DNA from: a virus
Lineage: Duplodnaviria > Heunggongvirae > Uroviricota > Caudoviricetes
IMG/VR virus record: IMGVR_UViG_2681813004_000011
Length of the DNA stretch: 17,781 nucleotides
Reading direction: 5' to 3' (one strand)
Under the pieces are notes generated by a model. That model saw only the letters and a list, made by a program, of their open reading frames with translations, was not told where the DNA came from and did no database searches. This document shows, in pieces, positions 3,670 through 11,419 of the stretch. Every line of letters starts with the position of its first letter. Within the stretch, counting starts at the first letter, position 1. A program made the position numbers and the translations under genes.

Positions 3670-3695
3670 AAAAAAAACCTGCCACAGCAGGTTTT
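3670..3695 (-). terminator. Stem-loop plus U-tract directly upstream of the tape measure gene (terminator-like or attenuator)
   Basis: Plus strand reads AAAAAAAACCTGC-CACA-GCAGGTTTT. On the minus-strand RNA a CCUGC/GCAGG stem (extendable with A/U pairs) is followed by U8, then the GGAG SD and the H start. Confidence 0.4.
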
Positions 3696-3704
3696 CATCA
3701 TTAT

Positions 3705-4384
3705 TTATGACATTGCTGCAAAGCTCAGCGCGTCTTCCAGCGCCGCAAACGGATCCACCTCCGGCTTATCCTCATCCTCGCCCCAGCAGAGCATGGCGTC
3801 CTTCAGTGCAACATTCATCCCCTGTGCCCCGAAAACCGCTTTCACGATCTGTGCATTACGGATATCCCCGCGCTCATCACCCAGCGGGGATACCCTGTCG
3901 AACTCCATCCACATCATCGCCTCGCTCGCACTCAGGCTGTGCCGCAGTTCGGATAAGGTGCGCCCCAGACGGAGCGCAAGTCGCATCAGAAAGCGAATTT
4001 CCGGGCGGGCTACTTTTTTCTGGCCGACTCTGCATCAGCGATCAGTTCCAGTGCCTGACGCAGCAACCGGGCATGTACCGGACCATAGACGGCCAGCACC
4101 TGCTCACGGTCGTCCGGAGTGAACACCCGTTGCAGGTCAGTATCACACAGGACATCGCAGAACAGCGTCACATCCGCTTCCAGGTTACGGCGGGTTTTCG
4201 CCACCACCGACAGGGTATCGTCATCCTCTCCATCACCATTGAGCACTTCCTGCCACAGATACCAGGCCTCTGCCGAAGGCTCCCGCAGCACCACGCTGAC
4301 ATTTCTCCATTCTGGCACCTTCACCGTTTTATGACGGAACCCCGACAGTCTGGCCAGCGCCAGTGTTTTCAGATCTTTTGCCAT
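3705..4384 (-). CDS. Tail assembly chaperone G-T fusion, made by a programmed -1 frameshift
   Basis: The -1 frame is open from the slippery site down to the stop at 3705 and reads ...KKVARPEIRFLMRLALRLG.... This matches the conserved G/GT arrangement upstream of tape measure genes. Confidence 0.65.
4010..4384 (-). CDS. G: Tail assembly chaperone G
   Basis: 124-aa acidic ORF between the major tail protein and the tape measure. It ends ...ESARKK-stop, with the last codons AGA AAA AAG TAG forming a slippery heptamer. Confidence 0.7.
   Translation of the reverse strand: MAKDLKTLALARLSGFRHKTVKVPEWRNVSVVLREPSAEAWYLWQEVLNGDGEDDDTLSVVAKTRRNLEADVTLFCDVLCDTDLQRVFTPDDREQVLAVYGPVHARLLRQALELIADAESARKK
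4013..4019 (-). promoter_or_regulatory. -1 ribosomal frameshift slippery heptamer A_AAA_AAG
   Basis: Minus-strand AAAAAAG (plus-strand CTTTTTT at 4013..4019) sits in the last codons of G, immediately before its TAG stop. Confidence 0.65.
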
Positions 4385-4389
4385 AAGCC

Positions 4390-5106
4390 TTATCCGCCCG
4401 CACCATTAACCGTTACTGTACACGCATCAGAGGTAATGCTCTGCGGCTGTTCTGCAGAATCCGTTACCTCGCAGGTATAAGCCCCCTTATCACCTGACTG
4501 CGTATTGGCTTTACTGAAAGTGTCAGTAGTCTGTCCCTCTACCGGCTGACCATCCTTCTTCCAGGCGTGTTTATAAGGCGGCGTTCCCCCGTTGACACTG
4601 ACTGACATTGTCAGCAGCGCACCTGTATTCACGGTAAGTGTTTTATCCAGATTTTTCACAAACGCCAGCGGTACCACAAAGGACACCGGTTTGCCTTTCA
4701 TACGCAGTGAAAACGTTGCTGCCACCACGCCGTTGGTACCGGATGACCAGGTGTGCTGACGCACTTCCGCCAGGAACTTAAAGCCCTTACCGGACGGAAA
4801 CAGCACCTTAAACGCATACAACGCGTCATTGTCATAGGCATCACGCAGGGCGTTCTGGGCCTGATTCAGATAAAAATTACCCGACATGGAAATCTCAGAC
4901 GACGCCCCCAGACCGTTGATGTTCTCCTGCTCGGTGGAGCAGAGCGTGGTCACATCAATATCCTGTTTCTGACCGGCGGTGAACTGGACTTCCTTGATGG
5001 TGCAGTCCAGGCGCAGATATTCCGCCTTATCCATAGTTTCAGCAGTCGCCGGGGCAGATGAAATCATCACCTGCGTCAGCTGTGAGCGTTCATACAAAGC
5101 AGACAT
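4390..5106 (-). CDS. Major tail protein with a C-terminal Ig-like domain
   Basis: 238-aa ORF just upstream of G/GT. The C-terminal ~80 aa (PPYKHAWKKDGQPVEGQTT...GAYTCEVTD) look like an Ig-like domain of the kind appended to phage major tail proteins. AGGAGG SD precedes the ATG at 5106. Confidence 0.75.
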   Translation of the reverse strand: MSALYERSQLTQVMISSAPATAETMDKAEYLRLDCTIKEVQFTAGQKQDIDVTTLCSTEQENINGLGASSEISMSGNFYLNQAQNALRDAYDNDALYAFKVLFPSGKGFKFLAEVRQHTWSSGTNGVVAATFSLRMKGKPVSFVVPLAFVKNLDKTLTVNTGALLTMSVSVNGGTPPYKHAWKKDGQPVEGQTTDTFSKANTQSGDKGAYTCEVTDSAEQPQSITSDACTVTVNGAGG

Positions 5107-5122
5107 TCTGCCTCCTGATAAT

Positions 5123-5143
5123 AAAAAACCCGCACGCGGCGGG
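5123..5143 (-). terminator. Stem-loop plus U-tract directly upstream of the major tail gene
   Basis: Minus-strand RNA reads CCCGC-cgcgu-GCGGG followed by UUUUUUAUUAUC, then the AGGAGG SD and the major tail ATG. Confidence 0.4.
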
Positions 5144-9399: not shown

Positions 9400-9409
9400 A
9401 ACCTGTTAC

Positions 9410-9427
9410 GGGAGGCGCACGCCTCCC
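9410..9427 (-). other. GC-rich stem-loop immediately downstream of the capsid gene stop
   Basis: GGGAGGCG-CA-CGCCTCCC forms an 8-bp perfect stem. It lies between an AAGGAGG motif and the ATG at 9399 and has no U-tract after it. Confidence 0.4.
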
Positions 9428-9443
9428 GTCCTCCTTATCAGAC

Positions 9444-11381
9444 TCAGCCGCCGGACGCACTGCCGTAGTTCACTCCGGTGATCACCGCCACCGCCGCAGT
9501 ACGGCGACGACGCCAGTTGATCCAGCGCTCCGCACGGATGGCCACGCTGCCTGTCTGGAACATGGAAACCAGCTCCACCGGGGACGGCGTGGTACTGTCG
9601 CCGGTCGGCTCAGACTGCATTTCCAGTGATGCCTCGCGGGACATATCCACTGCCACGCCGCCGTCATCCGCCAGATAAATATCCGGGGCATTCACCAGCA
9701 CCAGCTGGTCACCCACGTACTGGGAGACAATCACCGGCAGCCCCTGGAAGGAGCCACCCAGCAGGGTCATGTCCGGGTATTCCTTCTGACCCAGCGCATT
9801 TTTACGCATGGACAGTGCCAGGGCATTGGTGCTGGACATCAGCCAGACCGCACCGGTGGGCTGCAGGTTTGCTGCCACAAACTGTCCAAACGCCGCCTCT
9901 GCATCCGCATCCGGGTTACCGGTTGATGCCGTGCCCTTCACATCATGGGTGATGGACGCCGGGGAGACATCTGCCACTGCGGCTTTTTTCGGGTCCACAA
10001 AGTCTGTATCCAGACGCGCCACCACCGCTTCCGCCAGCGCATTACGGACCAGTGCATCAGCAGCCGGACTGGAAAAACGGATCAATTCTTCCGTCAGTAC
10101 CGCAATGGCCGACACTTTCGCATGACTGAAGGTGATGGATTCAAAATCAAACTTCGTCAGGGGTTTTGCCTTACCCTCACCCACCCAGCCGGCAGCACCG
10201 CCGGACACCTGGGCGTGCACACGGATATTGAACGGCACCTGACGAAGTGCAGGGATCCCGCCCTGACCAAATCGCCCGATAATGGTCTGCGGACGCAGGT
10301 AATCAATAAAGTCCTGTGCGTATTCCTGATATTCAGACAGGCTGCCTGCCCACTGCGGATCCGTGGTGGTCCCCGCGCCCACTGCCGATTTCAGGACATG
10401 ATGCAGACGACTGTCATCCGGATACTGACGACGGGCCACTTCCAGGGCTTCAGATCGGACGCCTTTAGCCGCAGCCAGCGATTTGGCAAAGCGGGCGAAG
10501 CCAATCCCCTTATCCAGTTTCTGCTCCACACGGATCACCGGCGCAGAAGCCACCGCGGCCACATTCCCGTTACCGGCCTGTTTCACCGGCTGCGCCGTGG
10601 CGGCCTTACCGGCTTCCAGTTCACGCAGACGCTTCAGGTGCGCATCCACCTGACGGATTTCCGCTGCGGTGTTGTCGTAATGCTCTTCCTCCTCCACATC
10701 CAGCGTGCGCCCTTCCTCTGCGGCTTTGGTCATGACCTCCTCAAGGGAGGCTGCCAGCGCTGCACGCTTGTTTTCAAAACTTTTAATCTGTTCGCCAATA
10801 TTCATTATGGTCTTTTCCTTATGAAAAACGGTTGTTGACTGTGCCGCAGCGCCGGCAGAAGATGCGATTTTCACCACCGGTTTCCGGTTGCCGGACGCGG
10901 CAGAAAACGGGCGGTCGTAAGATTTAATGGTCCGGATGGTGCATTCCGCATTCGCGGGCACGGTGACGGCAGACACCTCCATCAGTTCCCAGCGCAGAAA
11001 ATGCAGTCCGCCTCCGTCCAGAAAGGTGTATTCATGGGGACGGAAGCCCACGGACAGCCCCCTGACCAGCCCGGTCTTAATGGCCGCCCAGACCTCATCC
11101 AGCCGGGCAGCCAGTTGCGACGGCATATCCGGTACGGGCTTCACCAGTGTTGCCGTGATTTCCAGCCCTTCGCTGACCCGGCGTACCGTACACTGCCCCA
11201 CCGGGCGGGAATGGTCATGCTGCCAGAGAAACGGGATCGCACTGCCAAACTCCGCGCCCTCCGGCTCCAGGATGTCACCATCCCGATCCGGAGAAGGTGT
11301 TGACGCAATCCCGGTGATCACCCGTTCATCCTCACTGAAGGATTTCACCGTCAGCAGGGAACAGGCCCGTTTAAGAGTCAC
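9444..11381 (-). CDS. Prohead protease - major capsid protein fusion (HK97-type protease domain + HK97-fold capsid)
   Basis: 645-aa ORF. N-terminal ~170 aa carry prohead protease motifs (ITGIASTPSPDRDGDILEPEGA, IPFLWQHDHSRPVGQ). The remainder has the coiled-coil N-terminal region and C-terminal motifs (GLPVIVSQYVGDQLVLV, SVAIRAERW) typical of HK97-family capsid proteins. GTG start at 11381 preceded by AGGAGG. Confidence 0.85.
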   Translation of the reverse strand: MTLKRACSLLTVKSFSEDERVITGIASTPSPDRDGDILEPEGAEFGSAIPFLWQHDHSRPVGQCTVRRVSEGLEITATLVKPVPDMPSQLAARLDEVWAAIKTGLVRGLSVGFRPHEYTFLDGGGLHFLRWELMEVSAVTVPANAECTIRTIKSYDRPFSAASGNRKPVVKIASSAGAAAQSTTVFHKEKTIMNIGEQIKSFENKRAALAASLEEVMTKAAEEGRTLDVEEEEHYDNTAAEIRQVDAHLKRLRELEAGKAATAQPVKQAGNGNVAAVASAPVIRVEQKLDKGIGFARFAKSLAAAKGVRSEALEVARRQYPDDSRLHHVLKSAVGAGTTTDPQWAGSLSEYQEYAQDFIDYLRPQTIIGRFGQGGIPALRQVPFNIRVHAQVSGGAAGWVGEGKAKPLTKFDFESITFSHAKVSAIAVLTEELIRFSSPAADALVRNALAEAVVARLDTDFVDPKKAAVADVSPASITHDVKGTASTGNPDADAEAAFGQFVAANLQPTGAVWLMSSTNALALSMRKNALGQKEYPDMTLLGGSFQGLPVIVSQYVGDQLVLVNAPDIYLADDGGVAVDMSREASLEMQSEPTGDSTTPSPVELVSMFQTGSVAIRAERWINWRRRRTAAVAVITGVNYGSASGG

Positions 11382-11393
11382 ATCAGCCTCCTG

Positions 11394-11419
11394 AAAATAA
11401 AAAAACCGCCGGAGCGGTT
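11394..11419 (-). terminator. Stem-loop plus U-tract between the large terminase and the capsid gene
   Basis: Minus-strand RNA reads AACCGC-uccg-GCGGUU followed by UUUUUUUAUUUU, then the AGGAGG SD and GTG start of the protease-capsid gene. Confidence 0.45.

What the first reader, a model, noticed from the sequence alone, without database searches (positions are those of the whole stretch)
3670..11419. Recurrent hairpin + U-tract + strong SD modules placed just upstream of the capsid, major tail and tape measure genes
Three separate intergenic gaps in the minus-strand late operon share one architecture: a GC-rich stem-loop, a run of 6-8 U, then a Shine-Dalgarno and start codon. They are at 11394..11419 before the protease-capsid gene, 5123..5143 before the major tail gene, and 3670..3695 before the tape measure. 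A fourth GC hairpin without a U-tract follows the capsid gene at 9410..9427. Since late transcription in lambdoid phages is antiterminated, these may act as partial terminators, RNase processing sites or 5' stabilisers that set the expression levels of the most abundant structural proteins.
Basis: seen in the sequence. Interest (0 to 1): 0.45.

Follow-up and report, generated by a model that had tools for sequence, protein, structure and literature searches.

The report
Terminator hairpins punctuating a prophage late operon
Three short hairpin-plus-U-run signals sit between virion gene modules of an E. coli lambdoid prophage; they look like ordinary transcription terminators of a kind already annotated in phage HK97, and a fourth hairpin more likely helps a ribosome start the next gene.

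Summary
The window is the minus-strand late region of an EHEC lambdoid prophage (about 97% identical to phage 2851, 95% to Sakai Sp12). Its 13.6-kb virion operon has only four gaps longer than 25 nt, and each holds a hairpin. Three (terL|capsid, tail terminator|tail tube, T|tape measure) are canonical Rho-independent terminator shapes. A strict scan finds 5 on the sense strand against 0.36 expected.

Related prophages from about a dozen Enterobacterales genera keep hairpin plus U-run at the same junctions. This holds even where the stem sequence or the tail-tube gene family differs. Across 19 operons the intergenic hits are strongly strand-specific (49 sense, 6 antisense).

The feature is not new. 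The HK97 GenBank record already annotates "putative terminators" at the equivalent junctions, lambda has one before capsid gene E, and the phage L paper says the roles of such intra-operon terminators are unknown.

My best reading is that they stop RNA polymerase that was not modified by Q, and are read through during lytic growth. The idea that they boost abundant proteins is not supported.

The fourth hairpin lies between a Shine-Dalgarno and its AUG. Looping it out reduces 24-31 nt to about 5-9 nt, as in the split ribosome-binding sites of T4 genes 38 and 25.

The parts
11403..11420 (-). H1 hairpin (GAACCGC-UCCG-GCGGUUU) in the terL|protease-capsid gap
   Evidence: -10.9 kcal/mol, z -4.1. 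The stem is kept in 77 close relatives and in 17 of the 18 distant Enterobacterales loci scanned; 95.5% of cells pair, with a C-G to A-U swap.
11383..11404 (-). U-run plus RBS cassette UUUUUUAUUUUCAGGAGGCUGA before the GTG start (11381) of the capsid gene
   Evidence: The 22-nt motif occurs exactly twice in the window, with 0 expected by chance.
5129..5143 (-). H2 hairpin (CCCGC-CGCGU-GCGGG) in the tail terminator|tail tube gap
   Evidence: -8.5 kcal/mol; weak on its own. Nearly invariant in 78 close relatives (one stem and one loop variant) while the 5' part of the gap varies. Hairpin plus U-run lies upstream of the tail tube gene in 14 of 14 genomes compared, with at least five different stems.
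5107..5128 (-). U-run plus RBS cassette UUUUUUAUUAUCAGGAGGCAGA before the ATG (5106) of the tail tube gene
   Evidence: It is 20 of 22 identical to the cassette before the capsid gene.
3670..3695 (-). H3: A4, stem CCUGC-UGUG-GCAGG, U8, in the T|tape measure gap
   Evidence: -12.5 kcal/mol, z -3.9. Close relatives carry one of two different hairpins at this spot between conserved flanks. 11 of 18 genomes have a hairpin plus U-run upstream of the tape measure gene. The hairpin type tracks the 3' end of T more tightly than the 5' end of H.
3651..3665 (-). SD GGAGAAAGG and ATG of the tape measure gene
9408..9429 (-). H4: 9-bp GC hairpin without a U-run, between the capsid stop (9444) and orf73
   Evidence: -18.9 kcal/mol, z -4.6. 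The outer pair switches A-U to G-C and the loops vary among relatives. Present in 15 of 16 distant loci with an orf73 gap (the 16th has a terminator-like variant) and in HK97 gp5|gp6.
9430..9436 (-). SD AAGGAGG directly abutting the 5' side of H4, 30-31 nt from the ATG in linear sequence
   Evidence: The effective spacing is 8-9 nt once the hairpin is looped out.
9397..9407 (-). 8-nt spacer without SD complementarity, plus the ATG of orf73 (73 aa, phrog_829)
   Evidence: Substitutions among relatives are mostly synonymous. The ORF is annotated ECs_5451 in Sakai.
16004..16032 (-). Fifth terminator-like hairpin in the same operon (lysis region, endolysin|small ORF gap); bidirectional
   Evidence: (-21.6 kcal/mol, z -3.8).

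Best explanation
H1, H2 and H3 are ordinary Rho-independent terminators built into the intergenic gaps that separate the functional modules of the late operon. The modules are packaging, then head and connector, then tail tube and chaperones, then tape measure and tail tip. Each terminator is followed within 17-24 nt by the ribosome-binding site of the next gene.

The most likely mode of action is conditional. RNA polymerase that did not start at the late promoter and was not modified by the phage Q antiterminator stops at them. Such polymerase could come from read-in, from spurious internal starts or moron promoters, or from leak past tR' in a lysogen. Q-modified polymerase reads through them during lytic growth. 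Virion gene expression therefore stays strictly dependent on Q.

H4 is a different device. It is a stable hairpin placed between a Shine-Dalgarno sequence and its AUG, and it brings them to working distance for the small gene after the capsid gene (a split RBS). It may also protect the 3' end of the capsid message.

Shown here: the sequence anatomy, the enrichment over chance, the strand specificity, and conservation of structure at fixed junctions despite sequence turnover.
Inferred: that termination happens in vivo, that Q overrides it, and the translational role of H4.
For: Anatomy. H1-H3 have a GC-rich 5-7 bp stem, a 4-5 nt loop and a U6-U8 run starting 0 nt after the stem.

Enrichment. 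Five strict hits on the sense strand against 0.36 expected, with 0 of 200 shuffles reaching 5.

Strand and position. In 19 related virion operons (251 kb) there are 65 sense hits. Of these, 49 lie in the 10.6% of sequence that is intergenic. The antisense strand has 22 hits, 6 of them intergenic.

Conservation.
- The terL|capsid hairpin plus U6 is present in 17 of the 18 Enterobacterales loci scanned, at 57-77% capsid identity. Loops vary and one stem pair swaps C-G for A-U. 95.5% of cells pair, and 0 of 500 shuffles reach the observed covariation score.
- A hairpin plus U-run lies upstream of the tail tube gene in 14 of 14 genomes, with at least five different but perfectly paired stems. This includes loci whose tail tube belongs to another subfamily, PF16460.
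- At the T|H junction, close relatives carry either of two unrelated hairpins between conserved flanks.

Precedent. The HK97 record annotates putative terminators at the same junctions. Lambda has a hairpin plus U7 just before capsid gene E. [quoted passage not shown] The moron link also fits: a KilA-N moron sits between two terminators at this junction in L163, and the HK97 gp15 moron sits at the T|H junction.

H4. In the 14 of 19 distinct sequences where the core hairpin is the best fold, the SD abuts the 5' side of the hairpin, the linear SD-AUG distance is 24-31 nt, and the effective distance is 5-11 nt. In the other five the best fold extends into the SD, so no outside SD is scored; there the core hairpin and SD were placed by eye. 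The 3' spacer has no anti-SD complementarity in 17 of 19. The same layout is experimentally established for T4 genes 38 and 25 (PMC3014915).
Against: There are no 3'-end, termination or read-through data for these sites.

The hairpins are short (-7.5 to -12.5 kcal/mol). H2 alone is not distinguishable from shuffled sequence by energy (26 of 200), so termination efficiency could be modest.

The Q gene, pR' and qut lie outside the window. Q dependence is inferred from 95% identity to Sakai Sp12, which does carry Q.

This copy has a broken portal gene, so the elements may no longer be under selection here.

The U-run could instead be conserved as a translation enhancer or a protein-binding site.

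A purely 'insulating' role does not obviously explain why the sites recur exactly upstream of the capsid and tail tube genes.

For H4, in some relatives extra pairing could sequester the SD instead (for example L166, L168).
Confidence: 0.5

Rival explanations
1. Attenuators and stability punctuation during lytic growth. Even with Q, a fraction of polymerases stops at each site. Alternatively, the long late mRNA is cut in the AU-rich run after each hairpin. Either way, module-sized RNAs ending in a protective 3' hairpin accumulate, and mRNA dose steps down from head to tail tube to tape measure and tip.
For: The sites partition the operon exactly at functional module borders. A step down before the low-copy tape measure and tip genes fits virion stoichiometry. 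[quoted passage not shown] The T|H hairpin type tracks the upstream gene, as a 3' appendage would. H4 shows that a plain hairpin without a U-run is also kept directly after the capsid gene.
Against: By established knowledge of lambda Q, Q-modified polymerase is highly terminator-resistant, so the steps may be small. A site between terminase and capsid would lower the mRNA of the most abundant protein relative to a low-copy enzyme. A 3' barrier does not need a U-run, yet the U-run is conserved at H1-H3. No RNase E or 3'-end data are available here.
Confidence: 0.27
2. Translation modules. The hairpin insulates the downstream RBS from upstream structure, and the U-run acts as an S1-binding enhancer. 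The cassette then exists to drive high, uncoupled translation of capsid and tail tube. This is.
For: The spacing from hairpin to start codon is constant at 17-24 nt. A 22-nt U-run/RBS cassette is nearly identical before the capsid and tail tube genes and occurs nowhere else. Lambda has a hairpin plus U7 before E. By general knowledge, AU/U-rich leaders enhance translation.
Against: SD strength (-10.3 kcal/mol) is matched by 5 other late genes. The predicted opening energy of the RBS region is not lower for capsid, tail tube or tape measure (6.6, 11.3 and 8.1, against 2.7-16 for the others). The tape measure is low-copy yet has the same module. The constant spacing is simply the minimum room for a U-run plus an RBS. 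The 22-nt identity is not seen in the distant relatives.
Confidence: 0.13
3. Evolutionary leftovers. The hairpins are terminators of former morons, or scars of module exchange at mosaic junctions, with no current role in the operon.
For: Morons carry their own terminators and sit at exactly these junctions (HK97 gp15 at T|H, PMC3594210; KilA-N at U|V in L163). At T|H, two alternative hairpins suggest replacement by recombination.
Against: The sites persist in many genera without any moron. Stem sequences turn over while pairing and the U-run are kept, and the strand bias is strong. This indicates purifying selection on the structure itself.
Confidence: 0.07

Closest known systems
'Putative terminators' annotated inside the phage HK97 late operon (GenBank NC_002167; Juhala et al. 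2000)
   Same: Hairpin plus U-rich run at the equivalent junctions: upstream of the protease/capsid module (3309-3335), after the capsid gene (5192-5213), upstream of the major tail subunit (6692-6719) and upstream of the tape measure (8398-8422). The geometry is similar, for example GAACCCGCC-AGAU-GGCGGGUUU UCUUUUUCCAGGAGACAGCUAUG before the tail tube gene.
   Different: The sequences are different, and so is the head gene order (here terL, protease-capsid fusion, orf73, portal). The HK97 T|H site follows the gp15 moron, whereas this window has no moron there. The records of the close relatives inspected here (phage 2851, Sakai Sp12) do not annotate these sites. None has been tested experimentally, to my knowledge.
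Intra-operon terminators of P22-like phage L (Zaworski et al. 2020, PMC8022706)
   Same: Predicted Rho-independent terminators inside a single-promoter, antiterminated late operon at a module border. The authors state that the roles are unknown and offer the same two hypotheses.
   Different: Podovirus virion genes, unrelated sequences, and fewer sites.
Lambda tR' / Q antitermination, and the lambda D|E hairpin
   Same: Intrinsic terminators that Q-modified polymerase reads through (established knowledge). Lambda also has GGCCGCC-UGU-GCGGCU plus U7 directly upstream of capsid gene E, and a hairpin after E.
   Different: tR' is the regulatory switch next to pR'. The sites here lie kilobases downstream. 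Lambda has no such site before V or H, where the gaps are 7 nt and an overlap.
Split ribosome-binding sites of T4 genes 38 and 25 (Nivinskas et al. 1999; Malys and Nivinskas 2009; reviewed in PMC3014915)
   Same: For H4 only. The SD and AUG are too far apart in linear sequence (24-31 nt here; 22 and 27 nt in T4). An intervening hairpin brings them to a working distance (5-11 nt here; 5 and 11 nt in T4).
   Different: Unrelated sequence and phage group. Here the hairpin also sits directly after the major capsid gene and could double as a 3' stabiliser. There is no mutational or probing evidence.
Moron transcription units of lambdoid phages (promoter, gene, terminator)
   Same: Terminators at the same junctions, co-oriented with the late operon.
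   Different: No extra gene and no promoter-like site accompanies H1-H3 in this window.

Membership tests
Rho-independent (intrinsic) terminator | GC-rich stem-loop of roughly 5-10 bp with a short loop | tested here: met
   H1 has 7 bp (4 G-C), H2 has 5 bp (all G-C), H3 has 5 G-C pairs plus A-U extensions. Loops are 4-5 nt.
Rho-independent (intrinsic) terminator | Run of at least 5-6 U immediately 3' of the stem | tested here: met
   U7, U6 and U8 start 0 nt after the stem. The run is kept in relatives. H4 fails this test.
Rho-independent (intrinsic) terminator | Co-oriented with transcription, outside coding sequence | tested here: met
   49 sense against 6 antisense intergenic hits in 19 operons. 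Density is about 26-fold higher in intergenic than in coding sequence.
Rho-independent (intrinsic) terminator | RNA 3' ends or transcript release at the U-run, in vivo or in vitro | not testable with these tools
   Term-seq for strain Sakai exists (GSE143631, cited in PMC7547250) but cannot be read here.
HK97-type intra-operon late terminators | Located at the junctions before the protease/capsid module, before the tail tube gene and before the tape measure gene of a siphovirus late operon | tested here: met
   Junction by junction comparison with the annotated HK97 record and 18 prophages.
Terminator overridden by Q antitermination | Lies downstream of pR'/qut in a phage that encodes Q, and is read through only by Q-modified polymerase | not testable with these tools
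   Q, pR' and qut are outside the window. The 95% identical Sp12 region has Q upstream. Read-through is an inference.
Split RBS (T4 gene 38/25 type), H4 only | Linear SD-AUG distance too long, and an intervening hairpin restores about 5-11 nt | tested here: met
   24-31 nt linear and 5-11 nt effective in the 14 of 19 distinct sequences where the core hairpin is the best fold.
Split RBS (T4 gene 38/25 type), H4 only | No alternative SD in the spacer next to the AUG | tested here: met
   Anti-SD duplex energy of the 3' spacer is at or above 0 in 17 of 19. It is -3.2 in the two window-type sequences, which contain AGG.
Split RBS (T4 gene 38/25 type), H4 only | Translation falls when the stem is disrupted and recovers with compensatory changes | not testable with these tools
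   Needs reporter fusions or toeprinting.
RNase III processing site (T7-type intercistronic) | Long, about 20 bp or more, double-stranded stem | tested here: not met
   Stems are 5-10 bp.
5' stabilising hairpin (ompA type) | Hairpin at the extreme 5' end of a transcript | tested here: inconclusive
   No sigma-70-like promoter on the minus strand. A processed 5' end cannot be excluded.
Any curated Rfam family | Covariance-model match at or above the gathering score | tested here: not met
   The only match is a sub-threshold rimP-leader hit at 15969-16058 on the plus strand, 29.9 bits against 47.

The most novel reading that the evidence does not exclude
The junction hairpins may form a conserved 'punctuation code' that acts mainly on the RNA rather than on polymerase. 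Under this reading the roughly 20-kb late message is cut in the U/A-rich run after each hairpin into module-sized mRNAs. These carry protected 3' ends and freshly exposed U-run/RBS cassettes; the 22-nt cassette shared by the capsid and tail tube genes would be a common control point. The hairpin after the capsid gene would do double duty as a 3' barrier and as a split RBS, which would make it a widespread split-RBS case outside the T4-like phages.
Probability: 0.18. Interest if true: 0.5.

Novelty: new member of a known kind. Interest (0 to 1): 0.28.

Why it matters
Intra-operon terminators in phage late operons have been annotated since 2000, but their role is still stated to be unknown (PMC8022706). 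This analysis adds three points. The sites are under selection for structure. They are strongly strand-specific. They sit at the same junctions in HK97 and in prophages from about a dozen Enterobacterales genera, even where the neighbouring genes are of a different family. That turns a vague annotation into a testable question in a medically relevant phage group (Stx-type prophages of EHEC), for which Term-seq, dRNA-seq, Hfq and RNase E cross-linking data already exist. It also suggests that the HK97-type 'terminator' after the capsid gene is misfiled and is really a split ribosome-binding site. For this particular window, however, the finding is ordinary phage operon architecture.

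Tried and rejected
1. Rfam at a permissive threshold gave nothing relevant.
2. Whole-gap folding z-scores were weak (-0.6 to -1.8), so I moved to tight windows and a strict terminator scan.
3. My first terminator script missed stems that use U-run bases and was replaced.
4. Translation-enhancer idea: SD strength and predicted RBS opening energy do not single out capsid, tail tube or tape measure.
5. sRNA idea: I checked whether any hairpin is the terminator of a known EHEC prophage sRNA. HnrS/EcOnc10 maps next to the DUF3950 gene of Sp12, and the window diverges from Sp12 just there (14490-15170), so HnrS is not in the window. 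The other EcOnc sRNAs described lie at the pR' moron site.
6. A possible tandem terminator overlapping the stop of the tail terminator gene (5170-5186) is not stable (z -0.4).
7. MAFFT alignments of the tail-tube-junction and capsid-downstream hairpins were out of register because the stems differ in sequence and length. I used anchored per-sequence folding instead.
8. RNase III site: the stems are too short.
9. Promoter next to the hairpins (the moron model): there are no minus-strand promoter-like sites.
10. Alphaproteobacterial relatives of the capsid fusion (47-50% identity) lack the terL|capsid hairpin and have few strict hits. The feature is therefore lineage-restricted, not tied to the capsid family.

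Full report
WHAT THE WINDOW IS. All long ORFs of the region lie on the minus strand. Pfam identifies terminase small and large subunits, a prohead protease/HK97 capsid fusion (645 aa), a portal, a lambda-like tail tube protein with an Ig domain, the G and T tail chaperones, and a 1080-aa tape measure. The tail completion/terminator protein is identified. The DNA is about 97% identical to Stx-type lambdoid phages such as phage 2851 (94 phage records match, 76 over at least 80% of the 9-kb query). It is 95% identical to prophage Sp12 of E. coli O157:H7 Sakai over window 6310-14490. The window is therefore the late (virion) operon of an EHEC lambdoid prophage.

CHECK OF THE OBSERVATION. H1 (11420-11403), H2 (5143-5129) and H3 (3695-3678) are each followed directly by U7, U6 and U8, then a Shine-Dalgarno and a start codon 18-24 nt after the stem. 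H4 (9429-9408) has no U-run.

On tight windows the folds are -10.9, -8.5, -12.5 and -18.9 kcal/mol. H1, H3 and H4 beat all 200 shuffles. H2 does not (26 of 200 shuffles fold as well). The generic terminator scan is not enriched (18 against 16.1). A stricter definition is enriched: 5 minus-strand hits against 0.36 expected, with none of 200 shuffles reaching 5. The five are H1, H2, H3, a strong hairpin in the lysis region (16032-16004) and one inside the M-like gene (216-197).

The 13.6-kb virion operon is otherwise packed with overlapping or abutting genes. The 'strong SD' is real but not special, because seven of 16 late genes have an equally strong one.

COMPARATIVE EVIDENCE, CLOSE RELATIVES. 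I examined 160 IMG/VR loci at 91% protein identity or more.
- H1 keeps its CCGC/GCGG core. The loop varies (UCCG or UGCG) and the stem base changes A-U to G-U.
- H2 plus its U-run and RBS is nearly invariant (single stem, loop, U-run and SD variants occur), while the 5' part of the gap varies in length (58-68 nt).
- At H3, two unrelated hairpins occupy the same spot between conserved flanks: AAAACCUGC-UGUG-GCAGGUUUU, or GAACCGC-UGAG-GCGGUU.
- At H4 the outer pair switches A-U to G-C and the loop varies.
- The H3 hairpin type tracks the 3' end of gene T more tightly than the 5' end of the tape measure gene, as expected for a 3' appendage of the upstream module.

COMPARATIVE EVIDENCE, DISTANT RELATIVES. 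An alignment of capsid-fusion homologues retrieved 28 genomic loci. Synteny of terS, terL, capsid, orf73 and portal is kept.
- In the 18 Enterobacterales loci scanned (Enterobacter, Kluyvera, Buttiauxella, Citrobacter, Atlantibacter, Phytobacter, Kosakonia, Pantoea, Rouxiella, Erwinia, Proteus, Entomohabitans, Phlomobacter; 57-77% capsid identity), the terL|capsid gap holds ACCCGC-loop-GCGGGU, then U6, then an RBS. It passes the strict scan in 17 of them.
- On the alignment, 95.5% of cells pair and one pair swaps C-G for A-U. None of 500 shuffles reaches the observed covariation score.
- A hairpin plus U-run precedes the tail tube gene in 14 of 14 genomes, including HK97. There are at least five different, perfectly paired stems (CCCGC, CCGGC, GCCGGC, CCGCC, CCGC), and the stem ends 18-23 nt before the start codon.
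- In seven loci the downstream gene is a tail tube protein of another subfamily, PF16460. tblastn with the window's protein did not detect it.
- A hairpin plus U-run precedes the tape measure gene in 11 of 18 genomes. Start-codon calls were unreliable in the rest.
- Some genomes have a further site between the tail tube gene and G.
- Across 19 operons (251 kb) there are 65 sense-strand strict hits, 49 of them in the 10.6% of sequence that is intergenic. The antisense strand has 22 hits, 6 intergenic.
- Alphaproteobacterial relatives of the capsid fusion lack the terL|capsid hairpin and have few hits.

Structure, U-run, strand and position are therefore under selection in this lineage. Stem sequence is not.

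WHAT IS ALREADY KNOWN. The HK97 GenBank record annotates 'putative terminator' features inside its late operon at the following places:
- portal|protease (3309-3335);
- after the capsid gene (5192-5213);
- tail terminator|major tail subunit (6692-6719);
- major tail|G (7443-7462);
- gp15 moron|tape measure (8398-8422).

All four window hairpins thus have HK97 counterparts at equivalent junctions, and my scan recovers three of them. Lambda itself has GGCCGCC-UGU-GCGGCU plus U7 in the D|E gap just before capsid gene E, and a hairpin after E. It has none before V or H, where there is no gap. [quoted passage not shown] They offer partial termination, or stopping spurious transcription that lacks antitermination (PMC8022706). 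Morons, which carry their own terminators, sit at these same junctions: HK97 gp15 between the chaperone and tape measure genes (PMC3594210), and a KilA-N gene between two terminators at the tail tube junction of L163.

MECHANISM FOR H1-H3. They meet every sequence criterion of intrinsic terminators. Late transcription in lambdoid phages starts at pR' and depends on Q, which makes polymerase terminator-resistant (established knowledge; Sp12 encodes Q). Sites kilobases downstream should therefore be passed in lytic growth, but should stop any polymerase that did not load Q. I rate this conditional-barrier model as most likely (about 0.5).

The main rival (about 0.27) is that they act in lytic growth as weak attenuators and/or as 3' barriers after cleavage in the AU-rich run. 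That would give module-sized mRNAs and a stepwise drop in dose toward the low-copy tape measure and tip genes.

- a terminator upstream can only reduce transcription;
- the tape measure is not abundant;
- neither SD strength nor predicted RBS accessibility separates these three genes from the rest.

One oddity remains. The 22 nt from the U-run through the RBS are 20 of 22 identical before the capsid and tail tube genes, and occur nowhere else in the window. This identity is not seen in distant relatives, so recent conversion or convergence is more likely than a shared regulator.

MECHANISM FOR H4. Its layout is the reverse of the others: SD, then hairpin, then AUG. I folded 19 distinct sequences from E. 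coli, 13 distant prophage loci and HK97 gp5|gp6.
- In the 14 where the core hairpin is the best fold, GGAGG abuts the 5' side of a 7-9 bp GC hairpin. The linear SD-AUG distance is 24-31 nt and the effective distance after looping out the hairpin is 5-11 nt.
- In the other five the best fold extends into the SD (for example L166, L168), which could sequester it instead. Taking the core hairpin by eye, the layout is the same.
- The stretch from the core hairpin to the AUG is 6-9 nt. It lacks anti-SD complementarity in 17 of 19.

This is the split-RBS arrangement shown experimentally for T4 genes 38 and 25 (22 to 5 nt and 27 to 11 nt; PMC3014915). The downstream 73-aa ORF is real. It belongs to phrog_829, is annotated in Sakai as ECs_5451, and changes mostly synonymously among relatives. 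The hairpin may also protect the 3' end of the capsid message. The two roles are compatible.

VERDICT. The feature is a new member of a known, annotated but functionally untested kind. What this analysis adds is the breadth and strand specificity of the conservation, and the reassignment of the capsid-downstream hairpin. Nothing here shows termination, read-through or processing directly. Public Term-seq, dRNA-seq and CRAC data for strain Sakai could settle that.

Noticed in passing
window 6646-9232 (-): The portal gene is broken into three ORFs (454, 89 and 315 aa). In Sakai Sp12 and phage 2851 it is one 859-aa ORF (phrog_2271). The window has a 1-nt deletion near 7887 and an 8-nt insertion near 7609, so this prophage copy is probably defective, or the assembly has errors.
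   Followed up: yes
window 7106-7655: A 162-nt tandem repeat (3.3 copies, 93% matches) lies inside the C-terminal extension of the portal gene. It also shows up as multiple offset BLAST matches to Sp12.
   Followed up: partly
window 5107-5128 and 11383-11404 (-): A 22-nt cassette UUUUUUAUUWUCAGGAGGCWGA (U-run through RBS) occurs exactly twice, immediately before the tail tube and capsid start codons. The copies are 20 of 22 identical, with 0 matches expected by chance. It is not shared between these junctions in distant relatives.
   Followed up: partly
window 16004-16032 (both strands) and 15829-15926 (-): A strong bidirectional terminator-like hairpin (-21.6 kcal/mol) lies in the gap after the endolysin gene. 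It is followed by a 32-aa hydrophobic small ORF (phrog_6632) just upstream of Rz. A sub-threshold Rfam rimP-leader hit on the plus strand merely reflects the terminator shape. Phage 2851 has no such gap.
   Followed up: partly
window 197-216 (-): A terminator-like hairpin GGCAUGGU-GGUU-ACCGUGCC plus U5 (-13 kcal/mol, z -3.75) lies inside the M-like minor tail gene (77-418). It is identical in phage 2851. Whether it is functional or a chance match was not resolved.
   Followed up: partly
window 14490-15170: The window diverges from Sakai Sp12 here. In Sp12 this neighbourhood, next to the DUF3950 gene, carries the sRNA HnrS/EcOnc10. No HnrS-like sequence was recognised in the window. The best sigma-70-like promoter hit (14866-14893, plus strand, 11 of 12) lies in this variable segment.
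   Followed up: partly
window, whole: All six sigma-70-like promoter matches are on the plus strand, antisense to the late operon, and none is on the minus strand. A plus-strand terminator-like hairpin at 17245-17270 lies inside the 329-aa minus-strand ORF 16695-17684 (phrog_1085, unknown function).
   Followed up: no
L163 8800-9611 (Enterobacter intestinihominis prophage): A KilA-N domain gene is inserted between the tail terminator and tail tube genes. It is flanked by two hairpin plus U-run sites, a clear example of a moron sitting at a junction terminator.
   Followed up: partly
L187 9028, 9726, 11950 (Diaphorobacter caeni prophage): A betaproteobacterial relative of the capsid fusion (51% identity) has three hairpin plus U5 sites, each followed directly by CAUG, in its tail region. 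Similar punctuation may therefore exist outside Enterobacterales.
   Followed up: no
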